Of a DNA stretch of 64,000 nt, positions 2,520 through 64,000 are shown piece after piece. A program made the translations under genes and the position numbers. A model generated the notes under the pieces. That model did no database searches, had not been told where the DNA came from, and saw nothing but the letters and a program-made list of their open reading frames with translations. The stretch covers positions 924,852 through 988,851 of the forward strand of contig CBDFJL010000003.1 in NCBI GenBank assembly GCA_965248495.1. The letters are read 5' to 3'. Numbering within the stretch: position 1 is the first letter of the stretch; every line of letters begins with the position of its first letter. The DNA is from Dehalococcoidia bacterium (GTDB lineage: Bacteria > Chloroflexota > Dehalococcoidia > Lucifugimonadales > Australimonadaceae).

Positions 2520-2609
2520 TGGCGGAGGGAGTGGGATTCGAACCCACGATGCCCTTGCGGGCATAGCGGTTTTCAAGACCGCCGCATTCGTCCACTCTGC
2601 CATCCCTCC
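2520..2609 (-). tRNA. tRNA-Ser (anticodon UGA), CCA encoded
   Basis: The reverse complement reads GGAGGGATGGCAGAGTGGACGAATGCGGCGGTCTTGAAAACCGC-long variable arm-GTGGGTTCGAATCCCACTCCCTCCGCCA. Anticodon loop is CU-UGA-AA. It has a 7-bp acceptor stem and a long variable arm (class II). Confidence 0.9.
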
Positions 2610-4561: not shown

Positions 4562-4742
4562 GCCCTCGATGCTGACAGCAGAGAAGCCGCGGGAAAACGT
4601 CCGAAAGTACCACCCCATGGGTGGGCCAGGTGTGACATAGGGATGCCGCCGCAACCGTCACGCAGGATTGCGTGCCAGCCCCCCGTAGGATTGCAGGCGC
4701 GCGGCCTTTCTTGGCGTGGGTCGGCCCGCTAGCCTGCGATGC

Positions 4743-6026
4743 ATGGGAGTGCGCCTGGTCGGCCTACTGATGCTCATCGCCGTCGCAATGCTGGTGAGCG
4801 CGTGCGGCAGTTCCTCGGACGGCGTGCGGGTGTCGGTGGCCGAAGCCGCGCTAACCAGCGAGCCGACACCGCCCGCGCCCGCAACGCCGACAGCGACTGC
4901 GAGCCCGATCGCGACCGCAATCGCGACGCCCACCCCCGCGCTGACCCCGGCACCAATCGGCGCGCCGATACCCACGCCGACACCCAAGCAGGCTGGCGAC
5001 GCATCGGCACCTTCGACGCCGACACCTCTCGCGCCAACGCCAACGCAGGCGGCGACGGCGGCGCCTGCGGCGAATCCGACGCCGACGGCCACCATCGCAC
5101 CGCGCTACACGAACGGCGGAGGGGGCGGCTTCGTCGTGCTCGACGACCCCGCGTTCGTCCCCGCCTCGCGGGCCGGCCACGTCGCCGACGGCGACCTCGT
5201 CCTCGGCTACAACGGAGGGGCGCAGGCACGGGCCTACCCGGTGTCGATGATGTGGCTCCATCACATCGTGAACGACACGGTGCTTGGCGATCCGCTGCTC
5301 GTCACCTACTGAATACTCTGTAGATCGGGGGTCGGGTACGACCCCGTGTTGGAGAGTGGCGAGCGGGTCCGCTTCGACCTTCTCGGCCTGTACAAGGGCG
5401 TGTTCCTGATGCGTGACCGTGCCACCGGCTCGGTCTGGGCCCACCTCGACGGCTTCGCGTCCCAGGGCCCGCTGGCAGGGCAGCGCCTCGACTTCGTGTC
5501 CCTGCCGCAGATGACGTGGGGCGAGTGGCGGCAATCGCATCCCGACACGCTGGTGCTCGATGCGAACACGCCGTGGAGCGCCAACTACGGCGACCCCGGC
5601 CAGTTCTCCGATCCGACGCTGGCCAAGTTCGCCGACAATCGTCTGCCCTGGGACGCGCTGGTGGTTGGGGTCGAGGCCAACAGCGCCTACATGGGCTTTC
5701 CGCTCGCCGCGCTGACGGGCGTCGGTGGCTACACCAACACGACGGTGGGTGGCGTGCCCGTGCTCGTGACCTACGACGCTGCAACGCAGACGGGCATCGC
5801 CCACAGCCGCGTCGTCGAAGGCCAGGCGCTGGATTTCTCGTTAGCACCGGGCTTCTTCGGCCGCCTAACCCTCCAGGACGCGCAGACGGGGTCCAAGTGG
5901 GACGCGAGCGGGACGGCCATCGAGGGCCCGCTGAGCGGGACCCAGCTCACCTTCGTCCCGTCCTTCATCTCGGCGTGGTACGGCTGGTCGGCCTACCACC
6001 CGCAGACCGACCTGTTCGACGGCTAA
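4743..6026 (+). CDS. DUF3179 family lipoprotein, predicted selenoprotein (UxxC), Sec codon at 5310-5312
   Basis: Track ORFs 4716..5312 and 5346..6026 share one frame and are separated only by TGA. Read-through gives ...MWLHHIVNDTVLGDPLLVTY-U-ILCRSGVGYDPVLESGERVRFDLLGLYKGVFLMRDRATGSVW.... Lipobox MGVRLVGLLMLIAVAMLVSAC follows ATG 4743, then a PT-rich linker. Confidence 0.75.
5326..5346 (+). promoter_or_regulatory. Candidate SECIS-like hairpin for DUF3179 copy 1
   Basis: Stem GGGGUC/GACCCC (5328-5333 with 5340-5345), loop GGGUAC. The stem begins 15 nt after the UGA. Confidence 0.45.
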
Positions 6027-27261: not shown

Positions 27262-27530
27262 GCGCACTTTCAATAAGTTTCCGCAACGAAGGGAAGTAGT
27301 AGGGGACTCCTCGTCCAAGCGAGCCGGCGGTTGGTGAAAGGCCGGTGGCGTCAGGGCCCCGAACTCGTCCCGGAGCGGCCGACCTGAACGTTTTGAGCGG
27401 CTCAAAGCGTGTAGGGTAGGCGGAGCGCGCCGATACCGCGCCTAACGAAGCGCCTCCCAGCGGGCTGGGGGGAACGAGGGTGGTACCGCGGGCCTGGCCC
27501 GTCCCTTAATTGAGGGGCGGGTTTTTTTGT
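27262..27530 (+). promoter_or_regulatory. T-box leader, probable Leu (CUC) specifier, with intrinsic terminator
   Basis: T-box sequence AACGAGGGTGGTACCGCGG at 27473-27491. Stem I elements include the AGCGA bulge, a GGTGAAAG distal loop, and a specifier loop with AGUAGUA opposite GAA-CUC-G (CUC at 27364-27366). The terminator cccgtccc-ttaattga-ggggcggg plus T7 lies at 27497-27528. Confidence 0.8.
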
Positions 27531-56085: not shown

Positions 56086-56673
56086 CTACAAGATCTCGTC
56101 GATGAGCTCGTTCATCTTGCTCTTGGTCAGCAGCCCGGCGAAGCGGCTCTTGACCACGCCGTCCTTGGTGATGAAGTAGGTGGTCGGCATGCCGAGGATC
56201 TGGTACGAGCGAACGACGTTCTCATCGAAGGTGGTCCCTACCGGGTAGTCGACACCGAGCTCGCGGATGAGCTCCAGCCCTTCCGCTCGCGTGCCGAGCA
56301 GCTGGAACGGCCCGATGTCGATGCCGAGCAGCGTGACCTCGGCACCCCGCGCCTCGTAGACCTCCTGGAAGTCGGGCATCTCGGCCCGGCACGGCGGGCA
56401 CAGCCCAGCCCAAAAGTTGAGCACGAGCGGCTTGCCGGTGTGTTCGAGGATCGCCGTCAACGTGACTTCGTCCCCGCCCAGGATGTCGTCGCCCTGGTAC
56501 GTGGAGATGGTGAGGTTGGGCACGCCAAGGCTTATGCCATCGGCGGCCGGCTCGCCCCCATCGCTCCCACCACAGGCGGTTGCGATGAGCGCGACCAGCA
56601 GGAATACGGAGGCCATTGCCGTCATGCGGCCGCGTGGCCTTCGCGCTCGCGCCATTCGGATAAGACTTGGCAT
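56086..56673 (-). CDS. TlpA/ResA-like thiol:disulfide oxidoreductase lipoprotein (CPPC)
   Basis: Lipobox LIATAC. Thioredoxin fold with LVLNFWAGLCPPCRAEMP. It lies 44 nt downstream of the DUF3179 gene on the same strand. The start could be 56673, 56655 or 56625. Confidence 0.85.
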   Translation of the reverse strand: MPSLIRMARARRPRGRMTAMASVFLLVALIATACGGSDGGEPAADGISLGVPNLTISTYQGDDILGGDEVTLTAILEHTGKPLVLNFWAGLCPPCRAEMPDFQEVYEARGAEVTLLGIDIGPFQLLGTRAEGLELIRELGVDYPVGTTFDENVVRSYQILGMPTTYFITKDGVVKSRFAGLLTKSKMNELIDEIL

Positions 56674-56717
56674 CGGATCGCTACCTCTTCGAGTTTAGGA
56701 ACCAAACAGGGCGGGCA

Positions 56718-57839
56718 CTAGGGGGTCGCTTCCGCCCCGCCGTACAACCCGGTGTCGGGGTGGAAGTCGGTCCACGCGAACCAGAAGGACACGAACGAGG
56801 CCAACTGCGTCAGGCGGGTCCCCGCGAGCTCGCCGTCCTTGGCGACCCCGCTGACGCGCGTCCACGTCGAGCCGGTCTGAGTATCGCGCATCTCCAGGTT
56901 ACCGACGGGAGTGAAGCTCAACACCCGCCCATCGGCCAATGTGCGGTCGAACACGGCCTGCGTGCCCGCCTGTGGATCGAGGGTGACGACGATTTCTCGG
57001 CCGGAGTAGCTGTCGTTCACGATCTGCTCTTCCGCCAGCGCGCGGAACCCGTACGCCCGGGCCTGGTCGCCCCAGTCGAGCCCAACCACAAGCGTCTTCG
57101 TCGGCAGCCGGTCGTCGGGTACCGCTTCGCCGAGGATGCCGGCTGAGCCGCTTTGATAGTAACTCCGGTAGGGGTCGTCCCCGCTGCCGCGGCCGAAGCG
57201 CCGGTCCAGCAGCTTGGTGTCCGGGTGCCGTTCCACCCAAGCTGCCCACGTGGTCAGCGGGGCGGGGATCAGTTCGAGGCGCTCCCCTGCCAGCTCGCCC
57301 TCGACGGCCTCCTGGAGGAATTGACTCCAGAAGGTGTCGGTCTGGTGGTCGTACATGACGACGGCGTTGCGGATCAGCTTGCCGGATACGCCGAAGGTGA
57401 GCTCCCTCCCGGCGACCTCGCGGGCAAAGACCATGCCCGTAAAGCAGAGCGGTCACCACGTGACCATGACTGGTCTCCCGCCAACCGTATCGTTGACGAC
57501 TTCGTGACTGCTCAGGTGCGCTGTGGCGTAGGCCCGGTGGTCGCCGTTGATGGACAGCCCGATGACGAGCTCTTGCGGCAGCATCTGGGACGCCGCTACC
57601 GCGCCGTCGACGAACATCGGGTCAAGGATCGCTGGGATCGCGTCCTTCCCGAGAACCGTCCGGATCTCGAACTCGCGTAATGGCGTGGACGCGTCGGCGC
57701 CGGCACTGGCCGCGGGGAGGGCCACGGTGGTACTGCGGTTGAGCAGCCGCCAAACGGGGCTGCCGGGAATCACGGCGAGGAATGCCAATACGACGACGCC
57801 CATGACTACGGTCGCTGCGATGGTGGTGCGGCTCAGCAA
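56718..57839 (-). CDS. DUF3179 family membrane-anchored protein, predicted selenoprotein (UPLC), Sec codon at complement(57453..57455)
   Basis: Track ORFs 57453..57839 and 56718..57434 are in the same frame. Read-through gives ...HLSSHEVVNDTVGGRPVMVTW-U-PLCFTGMVFAREVAGRELTFGVSGKLIRNAVVMYDHQTDTFWSQ.... N-terminal TM anchor; TTG start. Confidence 0.75.
57421..57439 (-). promoter_or_regulatory. Candidate SECIS-like hairpin for DUF3179 copy 2
   Basis: On the minus strand, CGGGCA-UGGUCUU-UGCCCG forms a 6-bp stem with a 7-nt loop containing GGUC. It begins 13 nt after the UGA. Confidence 0.5.
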
Positions 57840-57986: not shown

Positions 57987-58010
57987 GGGCCGGCGTAGTC
58001 ACGCCGGCCC
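57987..58010. terminator. Perfect 9-bp GC hairpin downstream of sulfite reductase
   Basis: gggccggcg-tagtca-cgccggccc lies about 30 nt after the sir stop. The minus-strand U-tract is weak (UUCCUGG); the plus-strand side is T-rich. Confidence 0.45.
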
Positions 58011-58038: not shown

Positions 58039-59826
58039 CTAGACCGCGCACTCACCCTCGCCGCGCTCCAGCTTGTAGAGCACGGTCTTGCCCCAGTCCA
58101 TGTAGTAGTCCAGCGTCTCTTTGCCCAGTGGACCGATCTCGCGGAACTCCGAGAGGATGGCCTCAAAAGCGTCATTGCCCGTGCGGTCGACGAAGTCGTT
58201 GAACTCCTCACCATCTCGTCGCTGGTCGCGGTAGTAATCGAGGAGCCGCCGAATGGCACTCGGGACGTGTTTGGAAGGCACCTTGGCCTTGACTCGCTGG
58301 CCGTATTTGAGGCCGCCCCGCTCGTAGGCGCCGCCAAGGTAGACCTCGAAAGCGGGGATCTGGTTGCCCCCGGGCCCTTTGATGGAGGCTCCCTGGAAGC
58401 CGATGTTGGCCAGATGGTGCCTGCCACAGCCGTTGGGGCAGCCGGACGCCTTGATGTGCAGCTTCTTGATGGCCGGGTCTTCCAACAGGTCGTCCCAGTC
58501 CATCAGCGCATCCGTGACCGCCCGGTTCAGGCCCATGGAGGACGTGATGCCGAGCTTGCAGCTATCCGTGCCGGGGCAAGACGTCATGTCGGTGATCGAG
58601 TAGACCTCGGCCTCCGCCAGTCCGATGGCGCCAAGCTCGCGCCATACGGCGTAGAGAGCCCCATCGGGAATCCAGCGCAGCGCCAGGTTCTGCTCGGCGC
58701 TGAGCCCGAAGCTGGCCGAGCCGTGGTCGCGGGTGATCTGGGCGATGGCCCGGAACTGGTCCGCCGTCAGGTCCCCTCGCGGAACCTTCACGTACACCGC
58801 GTTGTAGCCCTCCTGGATTTGCGCGACGACGTTGGTCTTCCGCCAGAGAAGAAACTCCTTGTCCCCGGAGCCCTCCCCGGTGTCCGCCAGGGGAGCCGGA
58901 GGCGTCTCTTGAGCATTTGCCATCAGCGGGCTGGGGTCGAAGCTCCCCTCGTTGGCCCACGGCTTCTCCAGCTCGTCCTCGACCATCTGCCTGACGGCGT
59001 CGATGCCACGCCGGTGAATGAGTACTTTGATCCGCGCCATCATCTTGTTCTGACGCAGCTCGTCGGCGGCATCGAACACCCGGAGGATCGCCTCGGTAAC
59101 CCGCAGGTAGTCCTCGACCGCGACGAACTCGTAGAGCGTTTCGGCGTTCTTGGCGAGGATCGAGGTGCCTCCGCCGACGACCATCTTGAAGCCCCTGTGT
59201 TCGACCCCGTCAATCTCTCGCACGCGCGCCACGAAGCCGAGATCGTGCATCCCCACGATGGCAGGGTCGTGCTCGCCGGAGGAGAAGGCCGTCTTGAACT
59301 TACGCGGCATCGATTGGGCGATGGGGTGCCGCACGAACTTGCGGACGTACGCCACAAGGTAGGGCGTGATGTCAAAGGCCTGCTCCGGGTCGATGCCCAT
59401 CATCGGGTCAGCGTTCACGTTGCGGACCGTGTTCCCGCACGCCTCGCGGGTGGAGAGCCCGGACTCGCCGAGGATGCGCATCACGTTGGGAGCGTCCTCC
59501 AGCGCCACGTGGTGGTACTGGATGTTCTCCCGGGTCGTGATATGCCCCATCTTGAGGGGAGCAAGCTCGTCCGCAATGACCGCCAGCGCGTCCATCTGGT
59601 CTGCCGTTCCCAGCCCTCCGGGCAGCTTGACGCGCACCATTTGCGCATCGGGCTGGCGCTGTCCATAGATGCCCCGCCGCAGACGCCACGGGGTGAACTG
59701 CTTGTCGTCGATCTCACCCGCCCGGAAGCGCTTGGCCTCGACCTCGAACTCCTCGGCCTCGACCGCCAGGTACGGGATGACGCCCTTGGTGTTGTCGACT
59801 AGGCCGGCGTTGCGTGCAATGGCCAT
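58039..59826 (-). CDS. sir: Sulfite/nitrite reductase hemoprotein (ferredoxin-dependent type)
   Basis: Two NIR/SIR repeats are present. The siroheme-[4Fe-4S] Cys cluster reads TSCPGTDSCKLG...ASGCPNGCGRHH. GGAGGG RBS precedes ATG 59826. Confidence 0.9.
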   Translation of the reverse strand: MAIARNAGLVDNTKGVIPYLAVEAEEFEVEAKRFRAGEIDDKQFTPWRLRRGIYGQRQPDAQMVRVKLPGGLGTADQMDALAVIADELAPLKMGHITTRENIQYHHVALEDAPNVMRILGESGLSTREACGNTVRNVNADPMMGIDPEQAFDITPYLVAYVRKFVRHPIAQSMPRKFKTAFSSGEHDPAIVGMHDLGFVARVREIDGVEHRGFKMVVGGGTSILAKNAETLYEFVAVEDYLRVTEAILRVFDAADELRQNKMMARIKVLIHRRGIDAVRQMVEDELEKPWANEGSFDPSPLMANAQETPPAPLADTGEGSGDKEFLLWRKTNVVAQIQEGYNAVYVKVPRGDLTADQFRAIAQITRDHGSASFGLSAEQNLALRWIPDGALYAVWRELGAIGLAEAEVYSITDMTSCPGTDSCKLGITSSMGLNRAVTDALMDWDDLLEDPAIKKLHIKASGCPNGCGRHHLANIGFQGASIKGPGGNQIPAFEVYLGGAYERGGLKYGQRVKAKVPSKHVPSAIRRLLDYYRDQRRDGEEFNDFVDRTGNDAFEAILSEFREIGPLGKETLDYYMDWGKTVLYKLERGEGECAV

Positions 59827-59851
59827 GGTGGACCCTCCGGTCTTGAACAAT

Positions 59852-59900
59852 AAAAAAGCTGCACCCCGGTCCTTTGGCTTCGTAGCCAGCGGGGCGCAGC
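59852..59900 (-). terminator. Leader terminator (attenuator) about 25 nt upstream of the sir start codon
   Basis: On the minus strand, GCUGCGCCCCG...(inner UGGC/GCCA)...CGGGGUGCAGC is followed by UUUUUUAUUGUU. Confidence 0.6.
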
Positions 59901-59923
59901 GCCTAGTGGTTCAGGCGTGCACC

Positions 59924-59959
59924 CTACAGGGGACAGGGACAGCAGCTCAAGAGCGCCAT
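59924..59959 (-). CDS. Cys-rich leader peptide MALLSCCPCPL (11 codons)
   Basis: Reads atg gcg ctc ttg agc TGC TGT ccc TGT ccc ctg tag. The ATG lies 9 nt after the predicted -10 hexamer, so the transcript is essentially leaderless. The stop codon abuts the antiterminator arm GGGUGCA. Confidence 0.55.
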   Translation of the reverse strand: MALLSCCPCPL

Positions 59960-59967
59960 ACAGGGCC

Positions 59968-59997
59968 AAGCTAACACCCGTCGGAGCGGATTGTCAA
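59968..59997 (-). promoter_or_regulatory. Predicted sir promoter
   Basis: On the minus strand, TTGACA (59997-59992), an 18-nt spacer, then TGtTAGCTT (hexamer 59973-59968). Confidence 0.5.
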
Positions 59998-60018
59998 CGC
60001 GCGAGGTCGACAATCCGC
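59986..60018. promoter_or_regulatory. 10-bp perfect inverted repeat GCGGATTGTC-N13-GACAATCCGC overlapping the sir -35
   Basis: The arms lie at 59986-59995 and 60009-60018, in the divergent region between sir and the 60082 gene. Confidence 0.45.
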
Positions 60019-60081
60019 CAGGCCACGGCCTGGGGCACGGGGCTCCGGTGATAGACTGGCGCAGCCCGGATTGGGGGTGTC

Positions 60082-60438
60082 GTGCGGCAGGTCGCCTTCC
60101 TCGTTGGCTTGTTCGGTGCGGCGCTCGCGCTGTTGGGCTCGCTGGTGGCCATATTCGTTGGCGCACTCGGCCTGGTCACCGGCGGGGGGTTCGATGCGGG
60201 GGACCAGGCGTTATTCGGGTTGCTGGCCGTCGGTGCGGCATTGGTTGGCGGCCTCGGCGCGGTCGTCTCGCTCTTTCGGCCTCGGGCCGGTGCGCTGATG
60301 CTTCTGGGCTCGGCGGTGGCCGGGCTCCTCGCGATCCCGACGTACTACATCTTCGGAGCGGTGCTGCTGTTGGTCGGGGCCTTCTTCGCGTACCGCGCAG
60401 ACAGGGAGGCGGGCCGCAGTATCATGGGCGAGCGATGA
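60082..60438 (+). CDS. Small integral membrane protein (four TM, Gly/Ala/Leu-rich)
   Basis: MRQVAFLVGLFGAALALLGSLVAIFVGALGLV.... ATGA overlap with the following chdC-like gene. Confidence 0.6.
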   Translation: MRQVAFLVGLFGAALALLGSLVAIFVGALGLVTGGGFDAGDQALFGLLAVGAALVGGLGAVVSLFRPRAGALMLLGSAVAGLLAIPTYYIFGAVLLLVGAFFAYRADREAGRSIMGER

Positions 60439-61139
60439 CCACCGACGTGACCCCGCAGATCGTGCGCTACGCTTTCTACAAGGCTGACCCGGCCTGGCGC
60501 CGGCTACCGGAGGACGCCCGCTCGCGCAGCAAACGGGAGTTTGCCAGCGTCCTGGCCGAGCTCGAGTCACAATTGACGCTGCGCACCTACAGCCTGATGG
60601 GGATGCGCGCCGACGCCGAGCTGATGGTCTGGTCCGTCAGTGCCGACCTCGAGGGCCAGCAGGTCCTGGCCACCAGCTTGGCCCGCACCGAGCTTGGCGC
60701 CTACTTGGACCTGACCCACTCCTTCCTGGCCATGACGCGGCGCTCCAGGTACATCGACGACCATGGGCACGATGGGCACGAAGGGCCGGAGAGCCGCACG
60801 CGCATAAAGCCCATGGACCGGCCGTACCTGTTCGTCTACCCGTTCGTGAAGACCCACGACTGGTACCAGCTCTCCGGCGAGGAGCGCCAGCGGATGATGG
60901 AGGCGCACTTCACCATCGGCCACCTCTACCCCGAGGTGAAGATTCACACCTCCTACTCGTACGGGCTGGACGACCAAGAGTTCGTGCTCGGGTTCGAGAC
61001 GTCCGAGCCGCAGCGCTTTCTGGAGCTGGTGATGGAGCTGCGGCACGCTGAGCAGCGCCCGTACACCGAGCGGGACGTGCCCATCTTCACCTGCCTGCTG
61101 AAGACCGTCGAGGAGGCGCTCGACGACCTGGGGGGCTGA
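60435..61139 (+). CDS. chdC: Chlorite dismutase family protein, probable coproheme decarboxylase (HemQ/ChdC)
   Basis: YAFYKADPAWRRLPED...YLFVYPFVKTHDWYQLSGEERQRMMEAHFTIG...YSYGLDDQEFVLGFETSEP. Confidence 0.85.
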   Translation: MTTDVTPQIVRYAFYKADPAWRRLPEDARSRSKREFASVLAELESQLTLRTYSLMGMRADAELMVWSVSADLEGQQVLATSLARTELGAYLDLTHSFLAMTRRSRYIDDHGHDGHEGPESRTRIKPMDRPYLFVYPFVKTHDWYQLSGEERQRMMEAHFTIGHLYPEVKIHTSYSYGLDDQEFVLGFETSEPQRFLELVMELRHAEQRPYTERDVPIFTCLLKTVEEALDDLGG

Positions 61140-61268
61140 TGGGGGCCGATGGGAGGCTCCTGGCGGGCGATTGGGAGCCATAAGGCAAGCCCCCGGACAT
61201 TGATGACAACGAAGACGGCCCCGCACACGCGGGGCCGTCTGTTTCGGCGTGAGTGTCGGTGGGGGCCT

Positions 61269-61517
61269 TTAGCCGCGGGCGGCCGTGTAGTCGAAGTCGC
61301 GATTGATCTCGATGTAGTTTTTCCACTGCTCGGGGACCGCGTCTTCGGCGAAGATGGCGGCGACGGGGCATACCGGCTCGCAGGCGGCGCAGTCGATGCA
61401 CTCATTGGGCTCGATGTAGTACATCGTCTCCCCTTCGTAGATACAGTCGACGGGGCACACGTCCACGCAGGAAGCGTCTTTCAAGTCGACACAGGGTTCA
61501 GCAATGATGTACGCCAT
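61269..61517 (-). CDS. fdxA: 7Fe-type ferredoxin
   Basis: MAYIIAEPCVDLKDASCVDVCPVDCIYEG...CIDCAACEPVCP carries the [3Fe-4S] and [4Fe-4S] cysteine patterns. ATG at 61517. Confidence 0.9.
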   Translation of the reverse strand: MAYIIAEPCVDLKDASCVDVCPVDCIYEGETMYYIEPNECIDCAACEPVCPVAAIFAEDAVPEQWKNYIEINRDFDYTAARG

Positions 61518-61578
61518 TGGCTGGAACGTCCTCCTAATGGTTGCGCCGAGGGCTCGTTGGTGCGGTAGTGTACGGCGC

Positions 61579-62055
61579 CTACACGCGCTGTGCAACGGTC
61601 CCGGTGGTCTGCAAAACGGTGCTTGGCCCGCCGGGATTCTTCTTGATGGAGAGGTTCACGAAGGTCTCGGTGCGACGGACGCCGGGTACCGTGCCGACGC
61701 TGGAGCGCAGGAAGGCGGCGAGTTGCTCGGGCGACGGTAGCGCCACCCACAGGAACACGTCGTATGCCCCCGTCGTGATGGCCGCGTATTGCACCTCGGG
61801 GAGCTCGGCCAGCGCATTGGCGACGGGCTCGACCTCGGCGGGATCGACCTGCAGGCCGACCAACGCGGTGGTGCCGCGGCCTAGCTTGGCGGGGTCGGGT
61901 ATGGCGACCACGCGGATGACGCCGTCGCGGACGAGGTTGCGGAACCGGCGCCTAATGGTCCCTTCGCTCACCCCGATCTCGTTGGCCAGCTCGATGTTGG
62001 AAGCGCGGCCGTTGGTCTGTAGGAGATTGATCAATTGGTAGTCTAGTTCGTCCAT
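61579..62055 (-). CDS. lrp: Lrp/AsnC family transcriptional regulator
   Basis: MDELDYQLINLLQTNGRASNIELANEIGVSEGTIRRRFRNL, followed by an AsnC-type ligand-binding domain. Confidence 0.9.
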   Translation of the reverse strand: MDELDYQLINLLQTNGRASNIELANEIGVSEGTIRRRFRNLVRDGVIRVVAIPDPAKLGRGTTALVGLQVDPAEVEPVANALAELPEVQYAAITTGAYDVFLWVALPSPEQLAAFLRSSVGTVPGVRRTETFVNLSIKKNPGGPSTVLQTTGTVAQRV

Positions 62056-62215
62056 TGTGCCTCTTGTAACTATCTCTGTAATTCGCCGCCAGTATAGCGC
62101 TGGTCACCGGATTCGCGCAACAATGCTGCGCTATTCGCTTATAGACCGGCTGAACCGGCTGAACACGTCGCCGGCGCGACCCTCTGATGAGAGCCTGCAC
62201 TCTATTGTCGAATCC

Positions 62216-62245
62216 TTGACTAGAGAATAGGCATCTTGGTAGGCT
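62216..62245 (+). promoter_or_regulatory. Predicted promoter of the HesB/IscA-like gene
   Basis: TTGACT (62216-62221), an 18-nt spacer, then TGgTAGGCT (hexamer 62240-62245). The tandem repeat accggctga-accggctga lies upstream, at about 62145-62162. Confidence 0.45.
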
Positions 62246-62287
62246 GGTTACTAGTCTTCCGATCGCCTCTCAAAGGAGCGAGCCCAT

Positions 62288-62626
62288 ATGATCACCATTA
62301 CCGAGACTGCCGCAGGCAAGCTCAGGGGCATCCTCGAAGAGGAAGGGCAGCACGACGCCGCGTTACGGGTCATCGTGGTCCCCAACGGCCAAGGTGCGCA
62401 GTACATGCTCGCGCTGGAGGATTCGCCTAAGGACGACGACATTGTGATGCACGAGAACGGCGTAAGGGTTGTCGTGGACACCGACAGCGTTCCGCTGTTG
62501 GAGGGCGCCGAGATCGACTACACGGACAGCTTGATGCGTAGCGGCTTCGTGATCAGCAACCCGAACATCGCCCCGACGGGCGGCGGGTGCGCCTGCGGCG
62601 GCAACTGCGGCTGCGGCGCCCACTAG
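62288..62626 (+). CDS. HesB/IscA-like Fe-S cluster insertion protein, atypical Cys pattern
   Basis: ITETAAGKLRGILEEEG...LRVIVVPNGQGAQYMLALED...FVISNPN matches the family. The usual GGCSG cysteine is absent and the C-terminus is GGGCACGGNCGCGAH. Confidence 0.8.
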   Translation: MITITETAAGKLRGILEEEGQHDAALRVIVVPNGQGAQYMLALEDSPKDDDIVMHENGVRVVVDTDSVPLLEGAEIDYTDSLMRSGFVISNPNIAPTGGGCACGGNCGCGAH

Positions 62627-62707
62627 GGCCCAAGCGAACGAAACGCCAGAAGGGGCGGTCCATTGGCCGCCCCTTCTCTTTGCCCTCTTTCGCCGCGAGC
62701 CTGGCGC

Positions 62708-63454
62708 TTAAGTGACCATTGCTGGTGTCTGTCCTTCGTTGCCGACCGGTAGCGTGCCGCCATGGTGCGCGCGGTAGTCCGCCAGTAGCTCGGCGTGACG
62801 GGGCTGCGGCTCGTTGTCGACCTCGAAGGCGAAGTGCGTCGACTCCCAGGTCAGAGCGTTGACATCGTTGCGCCGGTGCGCCCGGAGGTGGCTTCGGAGG
62901 GTGTCACCGCCGTCCTTAGCCCATCCGATGAAGATGGTCTCGGTGCCGCGGTAGAGGACGTAGACTCCGGGCCGGTCCGGGACCCCTCCGACCGCCTCGA
63001 CGGTGAAGGGATAGCGGCGCTCATCCAGTGGGCGCTGGAGTAGGGGTTCTGGCTCCGGCGACAGCTGATGCTCTCTCGCCGCGTACGCCTGGCGAACGGC
63101 GACGCCAAGTTGGCTGAAGGTGAAGGGCTTCGTCAAAAACCCGTCCGCGCCGAGTGACTGTGCCTGGGCGAAGGCTTGGGGCGTGGAGAGGCCGCTGACC
63201 ATCAGCATGCAGGTCCCGGGATTAGCGCCTCGCGCCTCCTGAAGGACCTGAAAGCCGTTTAGGTCGGCCATGCGGATGTCGAGGACGACCAGGTCGAACA
63301 GGCCGACGGCGAGCCAATCGAGCGCCTCGTCGCCGGACCCGGCCTCGATGCAATCGAAGCCGTACCTCTCGAGGAAGACGCTCAGCAGCTCCCGAATGCC
63401 TGGGTCGTCGTCGACAATCAGGGCTGATGACCGCGTGTCGGTATCGATCGTCAT
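62708..63454 (-). CDS. Response-regulator receiver domain fused to a GIY-YIG-like C-terminal domain
   Basis: REC domain: ALIVDDDPGIRELL...DLVVLDIRMADLNG...KPF. C-terminal domain: GVYVLYRGTETIFIGWAKDGGDTLRSHLRAHRRN...FEV. ATG 63454 is preferred over the track's TTG 63466. Confidence 0.7.
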   Translation of the reverse strand: MTIDTDTRSSALIVDDDPGIRELLSVFLERYGFDCIEAGSGDEALDWLAVGLFDLVVLDIRMADLNGFQVLQEARGANPGTCMLMVSGLSTPQAFAQAQSLGADGFLTKPFTFSQLGVAVRQAYAAREHQLSPEPEPLLQRPLDERRYPFTVEAVGGVPDRPGVYVLYRGTETIFIGWAKDGGDTLRSHLRAHRRNDVNALTWESTHFAFEVDNEPQPRHAELLADYRAHHGGTLPVGNEGQTPAMVT

Positions 63455-63583
63455 GACTGTTTCCAAGCGGGCACGCTCGGCAGCCTAGCCCAGCTGAAAA
63501 CACCACTCTATGCCTGGTCCGAGGGAGCGGGCATGTACGGTGGTCGGGGGGTCTGCCCTACTTCCGGGGAAGCCGGAAGTGTG

Positions 63584-64000
63584 CTAAGGGGCGAGCTCGA
63601 CGCGGCGCCCCGTCCTTGCGGACTCGACCATGGCGAGGGTTACCTGGGCGCTGCGCAGGCCATCGATACCACTCGCCGGCGGCTCGGTGCCGTCAGCGAC
63701 GGCCCGGCCGAAGGCCTCCACCTGCCGTGTGTAGAGTGCAATGGGGTCGGTGTCGAAGTGCTGGTGCTCGTCGATGGCATCGGTCGCGACGCGGAGGTCG
63801 CCCTGGAGTACGGTCTCGACGCTGCCGGCCACATTGCCTTTGCCGAGCGATCCGTAGACTGCCACGTCCTGGCTGGGCCAGTCCGGCGTGCGGCGGCTGG
63901 TGGTGACGGTGCCGATGGCGCCGCTCTGGAAGCGCAGTAACAGCGTGATGAGGTGCTCCAGCGGGGTGTCTTGGGAGGCGTCGGTCAAGGCTGAGACCTC
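63584..64000 (-). CDS. Gfo/Idh/MocA-type oxidoreductase, C-terminal part (5' end beyond the window)
   Basis: ...GAIGTVTTSRRTPDWPSQDVAVYGSLG...ALYTRQVEAFGRAVADGTEPPASGIDGLRSAQVTLAMVESARTGRRVEL. The frame stays open to position 64000. Confidence 0.65.
   Translation of the reverse strand, partial: EVSALTDASQDTPLEHLITLLLRFQSGAIGTVTTSRRTPDWPSQDVAVYGSLGKGNVAGSVETVLQGDLRVATDAIDEHQHFDTDPIALYTRQVEAFGRAVADGTEPPASGIDGLRSAQVTLAMVESARTGRRVELAP

What the first reader, a model, noticed from the sequence alone, without database searches (positions are those of the whole stretch)
56086..57839. Sec-DUF3179 and a TlpA-like CPPC lipoprotein look like one extracytoplasmic redox operon
The UPLC DUF3179 gene is followed 44 nt later, on the same strand, by a thioredoxin-fold lipoprotein (LVLNFWAGLCPPCRAEMP). 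Both carry export or anchor signals. DUF3179 has no assigned function. A U/CxxC motif paired with a dedicated TlpA/ResA-type reductase suggests that DUF3179 is a redox-active, thiol/selenol-dependent periplasmic-side enzyme or metal/chalcogen handler kept reduced by its neighbour. I am not aware of this pairing being characterised.
Basis: inference. Interest (0 to 1): 0.75.

Follow-up and report, generated by a model that had tools for sequence, protein, structure and literature searches.

The report
Selenoprotein DUF3179 with its TlpA-like reductase partner
A membrane-anchored selenocysteine protein of unknown function (DUF3179) sits in front of a TlpA/ResA-like thiol reductase lipoprotein; the selenoprotein family was already catalogued, but the two proteins recur as neighbours and are often fused into one protein in archaea, which gives this large orphan family a testable role as a client of the cell-surface thiol-reducing pathway.

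Summary
Gene 56718..57839 (-) is a full-length DUF3179 protein (PF11376, E 4e-88). It is read through an in-frame TGA at 57453-57455 that replaces the first Cys of the near-invariant W-C-P-L-C motif. A conserved, covarying SECIS hairpin follows at 57421-57439. After a 44-nt spacer comes a 195-aa TlpA/ResA-like lipoprotein with a CPPC motif (56086..56673).

Sec-DUF3179 (UxxC/T) is already listed in the selenoprotein catalogues, so that part is not new. I found no description of the pairing.

The pairing is real but facultative:
- It is kept in all six relatives found that share the window's syntenic region, although the genes downstream of tlpA differ.
- It is absent from most other Sec-DUF3179 loci, including a second Sec-DUF3179 gene in this same window (4716..6026).
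- It recurs independently in distant bacteria and archaea, sometimes with CcdA.
- A TlpA-like domain is the commonest fusion partner of DUF3179 (66 of the 120 best hits to one fusion protein, all keeping both CxxC motifs).

DUF3179 models confidently as a tandem repeat of a domain with weak Rieske-fold similarity. CPLC lies at a beta-hairpin turn of repeat 1.

Best reading: an extracytoplasmic selenol/thiol client kept reduced by TlpA. The substrate is unknown, and a metal-handling role is not excluded. Interest is moderate.

The parts
56718..57839 (-). DUF3179 selenoprotein gene (373 codons including one UGA). It has an N-terminal membrane anchor, then two homologous ~125-aa repeats.
   Evidence: Translation. 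PF11376 E 3.9e-88 over residues 65-363. Internal repeat by hhalign, probability 99.9%, E 1e-35. AF2 model of a 58%-identical Cys homologue, pLDDT 89.9 and pTM 0.87.
57765..57827 (-). Codons for the N-terminal hydrophobic segment TTIAATVVMGVVVLAFLAVIPG (signal anchor or signal peptide, no twin-arginine motif).
   Evidence: Read directly from the sequence. Many homologues instead carry a lipobox (LAAC) at this place. The topology is inferred.
57453..57455 (-). UGA selenocysteine codon, replacing the first Cys of the W-C-P-L-C motif.
   Evidence: Aligned with Cys in 195 of 197 full-length homologues. 60 of 60 interrupted homologues use TGA.
57444..57455 (-). U-P-L-C motif codons.
   Evidence: P130, L131 and C132 are about 100% conserved. 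In the model of the Cys homologue the motif lies at the turn between two beta-strands.
57421..57439 (-). SECIS hairpin: 6-bp stem CGGGCA/UGCCCG in the window (7 bp in most relatives), apical loop UGGUCUU. It starts 16 nt after the U of UGA. A lower stem may extend it to 57415-57445.
   Evidence: Fold. Across 58 sequences it is 95.3% paired with 4 covarying pairs and exceeds all 500 shuffles on three of five measures. It is absent from Cys forms.
56674..56717 (-). 44-nt intergenic spacer with a GAGG Shine-Dalgarno-like sequence about 9 nt before the ATG of the downstream gene.
   Evidence: Sequence. No terminator- or promoter-like site in the spacer.
56086..56673 (-). TlpA/ResA-like thioredoxin-fold lipoprotein, 195 aa.
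   Evidence: Pfam AhpC-TSA 7e-15 and Redoxin 1e-12. NCBIfam ResA, StoA, DsbE and TlpA hits, all below the equivalog cut-offs. Nearest solved structures are ResA, StoA and CcmG/DsbE.
56389..56400 (-). C-P-P-C active-site codons (Cys92 to Cys95).
   Evidence: LCPPCRAEMP is invariant in 16 orthologues.
56572..56586 (-). Lipobox-like I-A-T-A-C (Cys34).
   Evidence: This Cys is invariant in 16 orthologues, which mostly read L-x-A-C-G/S. Lipidation is inferred.
57987..58010 (.). GC-rich hairpin (GGGCCGGCG-6 nt-CGCCGGCCC) 29 nt after the stop of the upstream sulfite reductase gene. It may be a terminator that separates that gene from the DUF3179-tlpA pair.
   Evidence: Read from the sequence. The terminator scan did not call it. 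Inference only.

Best explanation
The two genes encode a cell-surface (extracytoplasmic) selenol/thiol redox pair.

DUF3179 is made by UGA read-through directed by the SECIS hairpin just downstream. It is exported unfolded and held on the outer face of the membrane by its N-terminal anchor. Its working site is the Sec129-Pro-Leu-Cys132 turn in the first of two domains that show weak Rieske-fold similarity. A conserved His-Glu-x-x-Asn-Asp stretch lies 17 residues upstream in the sequence.

In each cycle the selenolate reacts with an oxidised substrate, which is not identified, and ends as a Se-S bond with Cys132. The co-encoded TlpA-like lipoprotein (CPPC) reduces this bond by thiol-selenosulfide exchange. 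TlpA is itself re-reduced by a CcdA/DsbD-type membrane protein that draws electrons from cytoplasmic thioredoxin. That protein is encoded elsewhere in this genome.

Shown here: the gene anatomy, Sec decoding, family membership, the recurrent adjacency and the fusions.

Inferred: the topology, the direction of electron flow, catalysis and the substrate.
For: Sec decoding:
- The TGA aligns with the near-invariant Cys.
- 60 of 60 interrupted genes use TGA.
- The hairpin covaries and is absent from Cys forms.

The pair behaves as a unit:
- The spacer is 44 nt with no terminator-like site.
- The pair is retained in L085, L086, L087, the JGI 3300072015 contig, L168 and L169. The genes downstream of tlpA differ among these loci: amidohydrolase; adenine glycosylase and RecO; cytochrome c, YHS and a Cu-ATPase.

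Independent recurrences:
- L055: TlpA, CcdA, Sec-DUF3179, one small gene, TlpA, with overlapping genes.
- L028 and L036: CcdA followed by two Sec-DUF3179 genes.
- L061: archaeal tlpA overlapping DUF3179 by 4 nt.
- L062, L046, L090.
- L135: TlpA, CcdA-like, DUF3179.

Enrichment: of about 10 Trx-fold or CcdA genes in 750 kb of flanks of 80 loci, 6 are immediately adjacent or fused. About 4% would be expected, giving a binomial p of roughly 1e-6.

Fusions:
- 66 of the 120 best hits to the L077 fusion are TlpA-like::DUF3179 proteins from at least six archaeal groups.
- All 66 keep CPLC and 64 keep the Trx CxxC.
- Among the 44 long representatives in the top 150 of an exhaustive profile search, the AhpC-TSA/Redoxin domain is the commonest extra domain (13 of 44).

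Direction of electron flow: CcdA adjacency points to the reducing rather than the oxidising pathway. The nearest solved relatives of the partner are the reductases ResA, StoA and CcmG.

Redox rather than structural role: UxxT variants are reported for the family (PMC9312934, PMC13188914), and an SxxC variant occurs (P0110). Both are typical of redox motifs.
Against: - Most DUF3179 genes, Sec or Cys, have no Trx-fold or CcdA neighbour. This includes relatives at 71%, 58% and 55% identity and the second Sec-DUF3179 gene in this window.
- The six syntenic loci are related genomes, so they are not independent evidence.
- Relatives of this TlpA at 40-57% identity are mostly not next to DUF3179.
- No ccdA gene lies in the 64-kb window.
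- CPLC sits at a beta-hairpin turn, not at a helix N-terminus as in thioredoxin-type catalysts. With the conserved His, Glu, Asn and Asp it could be a metal site.
- The AF2 model of a natural fusion gave no confident placement of the two domains (pTM 0.63, disordered linker 186-204).
- No substrate is indicated by any conserved neighbour.
Confidence: 0.45

Rival explanations
1. DUF3179 handles metal (for example copper) or a chalcogen rather than acting as a reductase. Sec/Cys129, Cys132 and nearby conserved His112, Glu113 or Asp117 would form a binding site on a scaffold derived from the Rieske fold. The TlpA-like partner would only keep the ligand pair reduced so that the ion can bind, as TlpA does for ScoI and CoxB in Bradyrhizobium (my own knowledge of that system).
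For: - The best PDB fold matches are all Rieske ferredoxins, Rieske domains of oxygenases or NirD (E 0.015-0.1, probability about 1, TM about 0.6 on ~100-residue targets).
- CPLC lies at a knuckle-like hairpin turn.
- H112 is 95% conserved and E113, N116 and D117 are 100% conserved, 17 residues upstream. This spacing resembles CxH-x(15-17)-CxxH of Rieske proteins (the Rieske motif is from memory).
- In three of the six syntenic relatives, YHS, HMA P-type ATPase or CsoR-type genes lie within 0-4 kb downstream in convergent orientation.
- Several Sec-containing metal-binding families appear in the same catalogue table (PMC9312934).
- In ammonia-oxidising archaea, DUF3179 is translationally coupled to a small Cys-rich 4-TM protein.
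Against: - Only two conserved Cys ligands, and His112 is not invariant.
- No twin-arginine signal, so a pre-assembled cofactor is unlikely.
- UxxT and SxxC variants would lose a ligand (PMC13188914).
- The copper genes are convergent neighbours in related genomes only and are absent from the window.
- The Foldseek E-values are weak, the aligned query region was not reported, and Pfam Rieske models do not match even at E up to 10.
Confidence: 0.25
2. The adjacency in this window is inherited gene order without a direct functional link. The TlpA-like lipoprotein would serve other clients (cytochrome c maturation, general repair of surface thiols), and DUF3179 would work independently.
For: - The pair is embedded in a block conserved across the relatives: GFO/IDH/MocA, HesB-like, AsnC, ferredoxin, Cld-like, sulfite reductase.
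- About 85% of Sec-DUF3179 loci lack the partner.
- The second Sec-DUF3179 gene in the window has none.
- TlpA-like paralogues are numerous and mostly sit elsewhere, often behind ccdA.
Against: - Independent recurrences occur in unrelated phyla and in both gene orders.
- Adjacency is strongly enriched.
- Fusions are widespread and keep both motifs.
- tlpA stays with DUF3179 while the genes beyond it change.
Confidence: 0.15
3. The TlpA-like protein acts as an oxidant or folding catalyst (DsbA-like). It would form a structural Se-S or S-S bond in newly exported DUF3179, rather than recycling a catalytic site.
For: Some Gram-positive DsbE/TlpA-like proteins are reported to be oxidising (my own knowledge). 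No ccdA gene lies in the window. The two residues are only two positions apart at a tight turn.
Against: - CcdA, the reductant supplier, is the other recurrent neighbour (L028, L036, L055, L135).
- Selenocysteine is rarely selected for a purely structural bond.
- A permanently fused oxidant domain in archaeal proteins would be unusual.
Confidence: 0.1

Closest known systems
DUF3179 domain-containing selenoprotein (PF11376, UxxC/T), listed in the prokaryotic selenoprotein catalogues (PMC9312934 table; PMC13188914 table). NCBI names some members 'DUF3179 domain-containing (seleno)protein'.
   Same: Same Pfam family, with Sec at the same position (first residue of the xPLC motif) and a SECIS hairpin directly downstream. 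The window gene is simply a further member.
   Different: The catalogues give no function, partner or structure. The public gene calls for this genome miss the read-through and record only the 238-aa C-terminal part (P0001).
CcdA -> TlpA/ResA/CcmG-type extracytoplasmic thiol-reducing pathways with dedicated clients: ResA with apocytochrome c in Bacillus; TlpA with ScoI/CoxB in Bradyrhizobium (own knowledge; structures hit).
   Same: A membrane-tethered Trx-fold protein with a CxxC motif is encoded next to its presumed client. CcdA is in the same cluster in some lineages (L055, L028, L036, L135).
   Different: The client is an uncharacterised family with weak Rieske-fold similarity and a Sec/Cys-x-x-Cys turn. 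The partner scores far below the ResA and TlpA equivalog cut-offs (74 vs 170 bits; 36 vs 230 bits), so it is a paralogue and not either of those proteins.
Surface methionine sulfoxide reductase systems: pneumococcal CcdA-Etrx-MsrAB2 and the neisserial PilB Trx-MsrA-MsrB fusion (own knowledge). Pneumococcal 'thioredoxin family protein' structures are among the PDB hits.
   Same: An extracellular reductase is recycled by a TlpA-like lipoprotein, and in some organisms the Trx-like domain is fused to the N-terminus of its client. This matches the pattern seen for DUF3179 (separate genes in bacteria, fusions in archaea). Msr families also have Sec/Cys alternation.
   Different: DUF3179 has no sequence or fold similarity to MsrA or MsrB, and no evidence points to methionine sulfoxide as its substrate.
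Rieske-type [2Fe-2S] domains and cluster-less Rieske-like proteins such as NirD.
   Same: Best structural matches of the model. A domain of about 100-125 residues with a C-x-x-(H/C) turn and a His about 17 residues upstream.
   Different: The first Cys and second His ligands of the Rieske motif are missing. Export appears Sec-dependent. The similarity is weak (E >= 0.015) and not detectable by sequence. This is not a member of the family.

Membership tests
DUF3179 (Pfam PF11376) | Match to the Pfam model above the gathering score over the whole domain. | tested here: met
   296 bits against a cut-off of 27, covering profile positions 1-292 of 292, with the UGA read as Cys.
DUF3179 (Pfam PF11376) | Conserved HE(I/V)VND ... 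T(W/Y)CPLC signature. | tested here: met
   HEVVND and TW-U-PLC are present. Conservation was measured over 197 homologues.
Bacterial selenoprotein (Sec decoded at UGA) | In-frame UGA aligned with Cys in homologues. | tested here: met
   Cys in 195 of 197 full-length homologues; TGA in 60 of 60 interrupted genes.
Bacterial selenoprotein (Sec decoded at UGA) | SECIS stem-loop shortly downstream of the UGA with G/U in the apical loop, supported by covariation. | tested here: met
   Hairpin at +16 to +34 with loop nGUnU. 95.3% paired, 4 pairs with double changes, no shuffle reaching the observed value on three of five measures. Lost in Cys forms.
Bacterial selenoprotein (Sec decoded at UGA) | Genome encodes selA, selB, selD and tRNA-Sec. 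| not testable with these tools
   Only 64 kb are available. ARAGORN and Rfam find a single tRNA-Ser and no tRNA-Sec in the window. The rest of the 2.64-Mb contig could not be fetched.
TlpA/ResA/CcmG-type extracytoplasmic thiol-disulfide oxidoreductases | Thioredoxin fold of the AhpC-TSA/Redoxin type with a WxxxCxxC active site. | tested here: met
   Pfam AhpC-TSA 55 bits and Redoxin 48 bits, both above their cut-offs. FWAGLCPPC is present. PDB best hits are ResA, StoA and CcmG.
TlpA/ResA/CcmG-type extracytoplasmic thiol-disulfide oxidoreductases | N-terminal membrane anchor or lipobox that places the domain outside the cytoplasm. | tested here: met
   Signal sequence with the lipobox-like IATAC. 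The Cys is invariant in 16 orthologues. Processing itself was not tested.
ResA (NF002854) or TlpA (NF047696) proper | Score above the NCBIfam family cut-off. | tested here: not met
   ResA 74.2 bits against 170. TlpA 36.3 bits against 230. DsbE 46.7 bits against 123. It is a TlpA-like paralogue, not an orthologue of these.
CcdA-dependent reducing pathway | A CcdA/DsbD membrane electron conduit is present and linked. | tested here: inconclusive
   No DsbD_TM homologue in the window. CcdA is adjacent to DUF3179 in L028, L036, L055 and L135.
Rieske [2Fe-2S] proteins | CxH ... CxxH cluster ligands and a match to the Rieske Pfam models. | tested here: not met
   The motif is SxH ... U/CxxC. No Rieske hit appears even at E up to 10. 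There is only weak fold similarity.

The most novel reading that the evidence does not exclude
DUF3179 is a previously unrecognised class of extracytoplasmic selenol/thiol enzyme or metal/chalcogen handler. It would be built from a duplicated domain derived from the Rieske fold that has lost its iron-sulfur cluster. Together with TlpA-like and CcdA proteins it would form a dedicated electron-supply module that is separate in bacteria, fused in archaea, and possibly replaced in ammonia-oxidising archaea by a new Cys-rich 4-TM partner. This module would operate in environmentally dominant groups (Nitrososphaerota, SAR202 and other Chloroflexota).
Probability: 0.25. Interest if true: 0.7.

Novelty: new member of a known kind. 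Interest (0 to 1): 0.45.

Why it matters
DUF3179 is a large orphan family. An exhaustive profile search found 16,203 clusters at 50% identity with E <= 0.001. The family is common in ammonia-oxidising archaea and marine and soil Chloroflexota, and many members use selenocysteine. Tying it to the TlpA/CcdA thiol-reducing pathway through gene adjacency and frequent fusion turns 'function unknown' into concrete experiments: thiol exchange between the two purified ectodomains, metal content, and substrate screening. It would also add a new client to a pathway so far known mainly for cytochrome c maturation, copper-site assembly and methionine sulfoxide repair. Finally, it flags systematic mis-annotation, because public gene calls split or truncate these selenoprotein genes.

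Tried and rejected
1. Stop codon as pseudogene or sequencing error: rejected. TGA is used exclusively, and the hairpin covaries.
I modelled the closest full-length Cys homologue, P0004, instead.
3. No coordinates are returned by the structure tool. Exposure of the UxxC and its distance to His/Glu/Asp could therefore not be measured.
4. As a stand-in for AlphaFold-Multimer I modelled a natural fusion. The domains are confident but the linker is disordered and pTM is 0.63, so the result says nothing about docking.
5. Looking up the window's own gene product in public contigs failed.
6. The sequence search of PDB with the DUF3179 profile gave only noise.
7. Pfam at E up to 10 on each DUF3179 half gave no Rieske hit.
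8. An apparent Trx::Sec-DUF3179 fusion in L007 is a spurious low-complexity hit in a non-coding frame.
9. The small thaumarchaeal 4-TM Cys protein is not detectably related to CcdA (hhalign probability about 1%) and has no Pfam family.
10. Clustering the neighbours of 80 loci gave no other widely conserved partner. The recurrent APRT/RecF, DUF1684 and 585-aa membrane proteins are local synteny.
11. The TlpA-side metagenome scan showed that this TlpA subfamily is not dedicated to DUF3179.
12. A scan for further in-frame TGA read-throughs in the window found only the two DUF3179 genes as convincing cases.
Full report
**1. What is in the sequence**

Two minus-strand genes occupy 56086-57839.

The upstream gene, 56718..57839, translates as one 373-codon frame interrupted once, by TGA at 57453-57455, in the context VMVTW-U-PLCFTG. 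With that codon read as Cys, the protein matches Pfam DUF3179 end to end (E 3.9e-88, residues 65-363). No NCBIfam model matches it. Its N-terminus (TTIAATVVMGVVVLAFLAVIPG) is a single hydrophobic anchor without a twin-arginine motif.

Forty-four nucleotides downstream (56674-56717), preceded by a GAGG, starts a 195-aa protein at 56086..56673:
- It has a charged N-region and a lipobox-like IATAC.
- It contains the stretch LVLNFWAGLCPPCRAEMP.
- It hits AhpC-TSA, Redoxin and Thioredoxin in Pfam, and ResA, StoA, DsbE and TlpA models in NCBIfam, all well below their orthologue cut-offs.
- Its nearest solved relatives are ResA, StoA and CcmG/DsbE.

**2. The UGA encodes selenocysteine**

- In an alignment of full-length homologues the stop falls on the first Cys of a W/Y-C-P-L-C motif. 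That position is Cys in 195 of 197 sequences.
- A scan of species-representative genomes returned 80 loci, mostly Chloroflexota and Nitrososphaerota. In about 58 of them the gene is interrupted at exactly this position.
- Every one of the 60 interruptions at the motif (including the window's) is TGA, never TAA or TAG.
- Sixteen nucleotides after the U of UGA lies a hairpin: CGGGCA-UGGUCUU-UGCCCG in the window, 57421-57439.
- Over 58 distinct sequences its 7 pairs are 95.3% paired. Four pairs show changes on both sides (GC to UA, CG to AU and others). None of 500 shuffles reaches the observed percentage paired, double-changed cells or covariation score. Sliding the partner by one to three columns drops pairing to 17-53%.
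- Cys-encoding homologues keep on average 3.2 of the 7 pairs, against 6.7 for TGA forms. The hairpin therefore goes with the UGA, not with the protein sequence.
- The Sec machinery itself is not in the window and could not be checked elsewhere in the genome.

**3. What was already known**

[quoted passage not shown] NCBI names some members 'DUF3179 domain-containing (seleno)protein'.

Neither review assigns a function or mentions a partner, and the section on selenoprotein operons does not include it. Full-text searches for DUF3179, PF11376 or pfam11376 found nothing else relevant.

The selenoprotein is thus a new member of a catalogued family. The pairing is the only potentially new element.

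**4. Is the pairing conserved?**

*Among relatives that share the window's syntenic region: yes.*
- Six contigs have the same Sec-DUF3179 followed by a Redoxin/AhpC-TSA gene, 10 to 85 nt downstream. Their DUF3179 is 59-73% identical to the window's. They are L085, L086, a JGI contig (sample 3300072015), L168 and L169, plus L087, where one 180-aa gene is inserted between the two.
- These loci share the window's wider gene order: GFO/IDH/MocA, HesB-like, AsnC, ferredoxin, Cld-like, small membrane protein, and sometimes sulfite reductase. They are therefore related genomes, not independent samples.
- However, the genes after tlpA differ: amidohydrolase; adenine glycosylase and RecO; cytochrome c, YHS and a Cu-ATPase. 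So tlpA stays with DUF3179 at the edge of the conserved block.

*Outside these relatives: mostly no.*
- Relatives at 71%, 58% and 55% identity lack the partner.
- Among the 80 genome loci only a handful have any Trx-fold or CcdA gene nearby.
- From the other side, relatives of this TlpA at 40-57% identity are almost never next to DUF3179. More distant ones typically sit behind ccdA.
- The window itself holds a second Sec-DUF3179 gene with no such neighbour: 4716..6026 (+), UGA at 5310-5312, motif VTY-U-ILC, strong hairpin at 5328-5345.

**5. The association nevertheless recurs independently**

| Locus | Lineage | Arrangement |
|---|---|---|
| L055 | Dormibacterota | TlpA-like, CcdA, Sec-DUF3179, small secreted protein, TlpA-like; first three genes overlapping |
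| L028, L036 | Chloroflexota | CcdA followed by two tandem Sec-DUF3179 lipoproteins |
| L061 | Methanosarcinales | tlpA-like gene overlapping DUF3179 by 4 nt |
| L062 | Terriglobia | tlpA-like gene directly upstream |
| L046 | Dehalococcoidia | 545-aa protein with an N-terminal Redoxin domain directly downstream |
| L090 | metagenome contig | Trx-like, TlpA, then Sec-DUF3179 after 500 bp |
| L135 | metagenome contig | TlpA, CcdA-like, DUF3179 |

Of about ten Trx-fold or CcdA genes found in 750 kb of flanking DNA of the 80 loci, six touch DUF3179 or are fused to it. About 4% would be expected for random placement, giving a binomial p of about 1e-6 after removing one spurious hit and merging two sister loci.

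**6. Fusions**

- L077 (Nitrososphaerota) encodes one protein with a membrane anchor, a TlpA-like domain (FWATWCPFC) and DUF3179 (TYCPLC).
- Searching with it, 66 of the 120 best clusters are such fusions (440-620 aa). They come from Nitrososphaerales, Aenigmarchaeota, Micrarchaeota, Woesearchaeota, Nanoarchaeota and Euryarchaeota.
- All 66 keep CPLC, and 64 keep the Trx CxxC (CPFC in 37, CPPC in 20).
- An exhaustive profile search found 16,203 clusters at 50% identity with E <= 0.001.
- Among the 44 long proteins in its top 150, the AhpC-TSA/Redoxin domain is the most frequent extra domain (13). Next come surface modules such as fn3 (4).
- Fusion of a TlpA-like domain to its client has a precedent in neisserial PilB (own knowledge).

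This is the strongest argument that the two window proteins work on each other.

**7. Anatomy of DUF3179**

- An AF2 model of the closest Cys homologue is confident (pLDDT 89.9, pTM 0.87).
- The two halves of the domain are homologous (hhalign probability 99.9%, E 1e-35). The protein is a tandem duplication of a ~125-residue beta-rich unit, and only repeat 1 carries the motif.
- CPLC lies at the turn between two strands.
- Foldseek against the PDB gives only weak E-values (0.015-0.1). However, the first 27 hits are all Rieske ferredoxins, Rieske domains of oxygenases or NirD, with probability about 1 and TM about 0.6 on ~100-residue targets.
- His112 (95%), Glu113, Asn116 and Asp117 (100%) lie 17 residues before the motif. 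This spacing recalls CxH-x(15-17)-CxxH of Rieske proteins (from memory).
- The Rieske ligand set is incomplete and no Rieske Pfam model matches. This is a fold resemblance, not membership.
- A model of a natural fusion has confident domains but a disordered linker and pTM 0.63. It gives no information on docking.

**8. Most likely mechanism**

- DUF3179 is exported and anchored outside the membrane.
- Its Sec129/Cys132 pair cycles between selenol/thiol and Se-S.
- The TlpA-like lipoprotein reduces it.
- A CcdA-type conduit encoded elsewhere feeds TlpA from cytoplasmic thioredoxin.

The recurrent CcdA neighbour and the ResA/CcmG-like nature of the partner argue for reduction rather than oxidation. 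UxxT and SxxC variants argue for a redox motif rather than a strict metal ligand pair.

The substrate is unknown, and no conserved catalytic neighbour points to one.

A metal or chalcogen-handling role on the TlpA-ScoI model is the main rival. The points in its favour are:
- the knuckle-like turn;
- the conserved His, Glu and Asp;
- the Rieske-like fold;
- YHS, Cu-ATPase and CsoR-type genes close by in three related loci;
- the Cys-rich 4-TM partner in ammonia oxidisers.

Pure synteny, and an oxidative folding role, are less likely.

**9. Verdict**

A functional link between DUF3179 and a TlpA-like reductase is well supported by recurrence and fusion. But the link is facultative, the selenoprotein is already known, and neither electron transfer nor co-transcription has been shown.
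- This is a new member, and a probable new client, of a known kind of system. It is of moderate interest mainly because it gives a large and ecologically prominent orphan family a testable function.

Noticed in passing
window 4716..6026 (+); UGA 5310-5312; hairpin 5328-5345: A second DUF3179 selenoprotein gene in the same window. It is a lipoprotein (LVSAC) with a long Pro/Thr/Ala linker, motif VTY-U-ILC, and a strong hairpin with a GGUA loop 18 nt after the UGA (z -2.1). It has no Trx-fold or CcdA neighbour. Its flanks are a GFO/IDH/MocA-type oxidoreductase (-) and a formamidase-like gene.
   Followed up: partly
L059, L060, L064, L065, L067, L069-L073, L078-L080 (e.g. L064:5429-5935): In 12 thaumarchaeal loci DUF3179 is translationally coupled (often a 4-nt overlap, in either order) to a ~160-aa four-helix membrane protein with a conserved LGC and FFSFFSLVPLGCCGWW. 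It has no Pfam family and no detectable similarity to CcdA. It might be a new membrane thiol or metal partner.
   Followed up: partly
L169:5408-8714; L087:6941-8717; L086:8421-8627: In three relatives of the window locus, a convergent copper-type cluster lies directly or within about 4 kb downstream of the DUF3179-tlpA pair. In L169 it comprises cytochrome c, a YHS protein, an HMA P-type ATPase and a CsoR-type repressor. No such cluster is present in the window.
   Followed up: no
window 56718..57434 and 56086..56625 (public gene calls P0001, P0121): The public annotation of this genome records only the 238-aa part of DUF3179 after the UGA. It also starts the TlpA-like gene at Met17 (179 aa). 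About half of the 120 best database hits to DUF3179 are such 232-255-aa truncated calls, so Sec forms are systematically mis-annotated.
   Followed up: partly
L062:5833-6930: A Cys-encoding DUF3179 in a Terriglobia genome keeps all 7 pairs of the SECIS-type hairpin, which suggests a recent Sec-to-Cys change. It has a TlpA-like gene upstream and transposase genes on both sides.
   Followed up: no
L005, L006, L040, L028, L036: Tandem duplicated Sec-DUF3179 genes, each with its own UGA and hairpin. In L028 and L036 both copies follow a single ccdA gene.
   Followed up: partly
window 57450-57466 (-): A 7-bp palindrome (UGGUCAC-GUG-GUGACCG) spans the UGA codon itself. It was the only terminator-like call in the region. 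Its relation to Sec decoding, if any, is unknown.
   Followed up: no
window 58039..64000: The pair sits at the end of a block conserved in relatives: GFO/IDH/MocA oxidoreductase, HesB/IscA-like protein (62288..62626), AsnC regulator, small ferredoxin, chlorite-dismutase-like protein, a 118-aa membrane protein, and a 603-aa ferredoxin-type sulfite/nitrite reductase (58039..59850) directly upstream on the same strand.
   Followed up: partly
window 27277..27509 (+) and 2520..2609 (-): A T-box leader (Rfam, 93.1 bits, just above the gathering score of 93) and a tRNA-Ser(UGA) gene. With 67% GC and the nearest DUF3179 relatives, this fits a Chloroflexota (Dehalococcoidia-like) genome.
   Followed up: no
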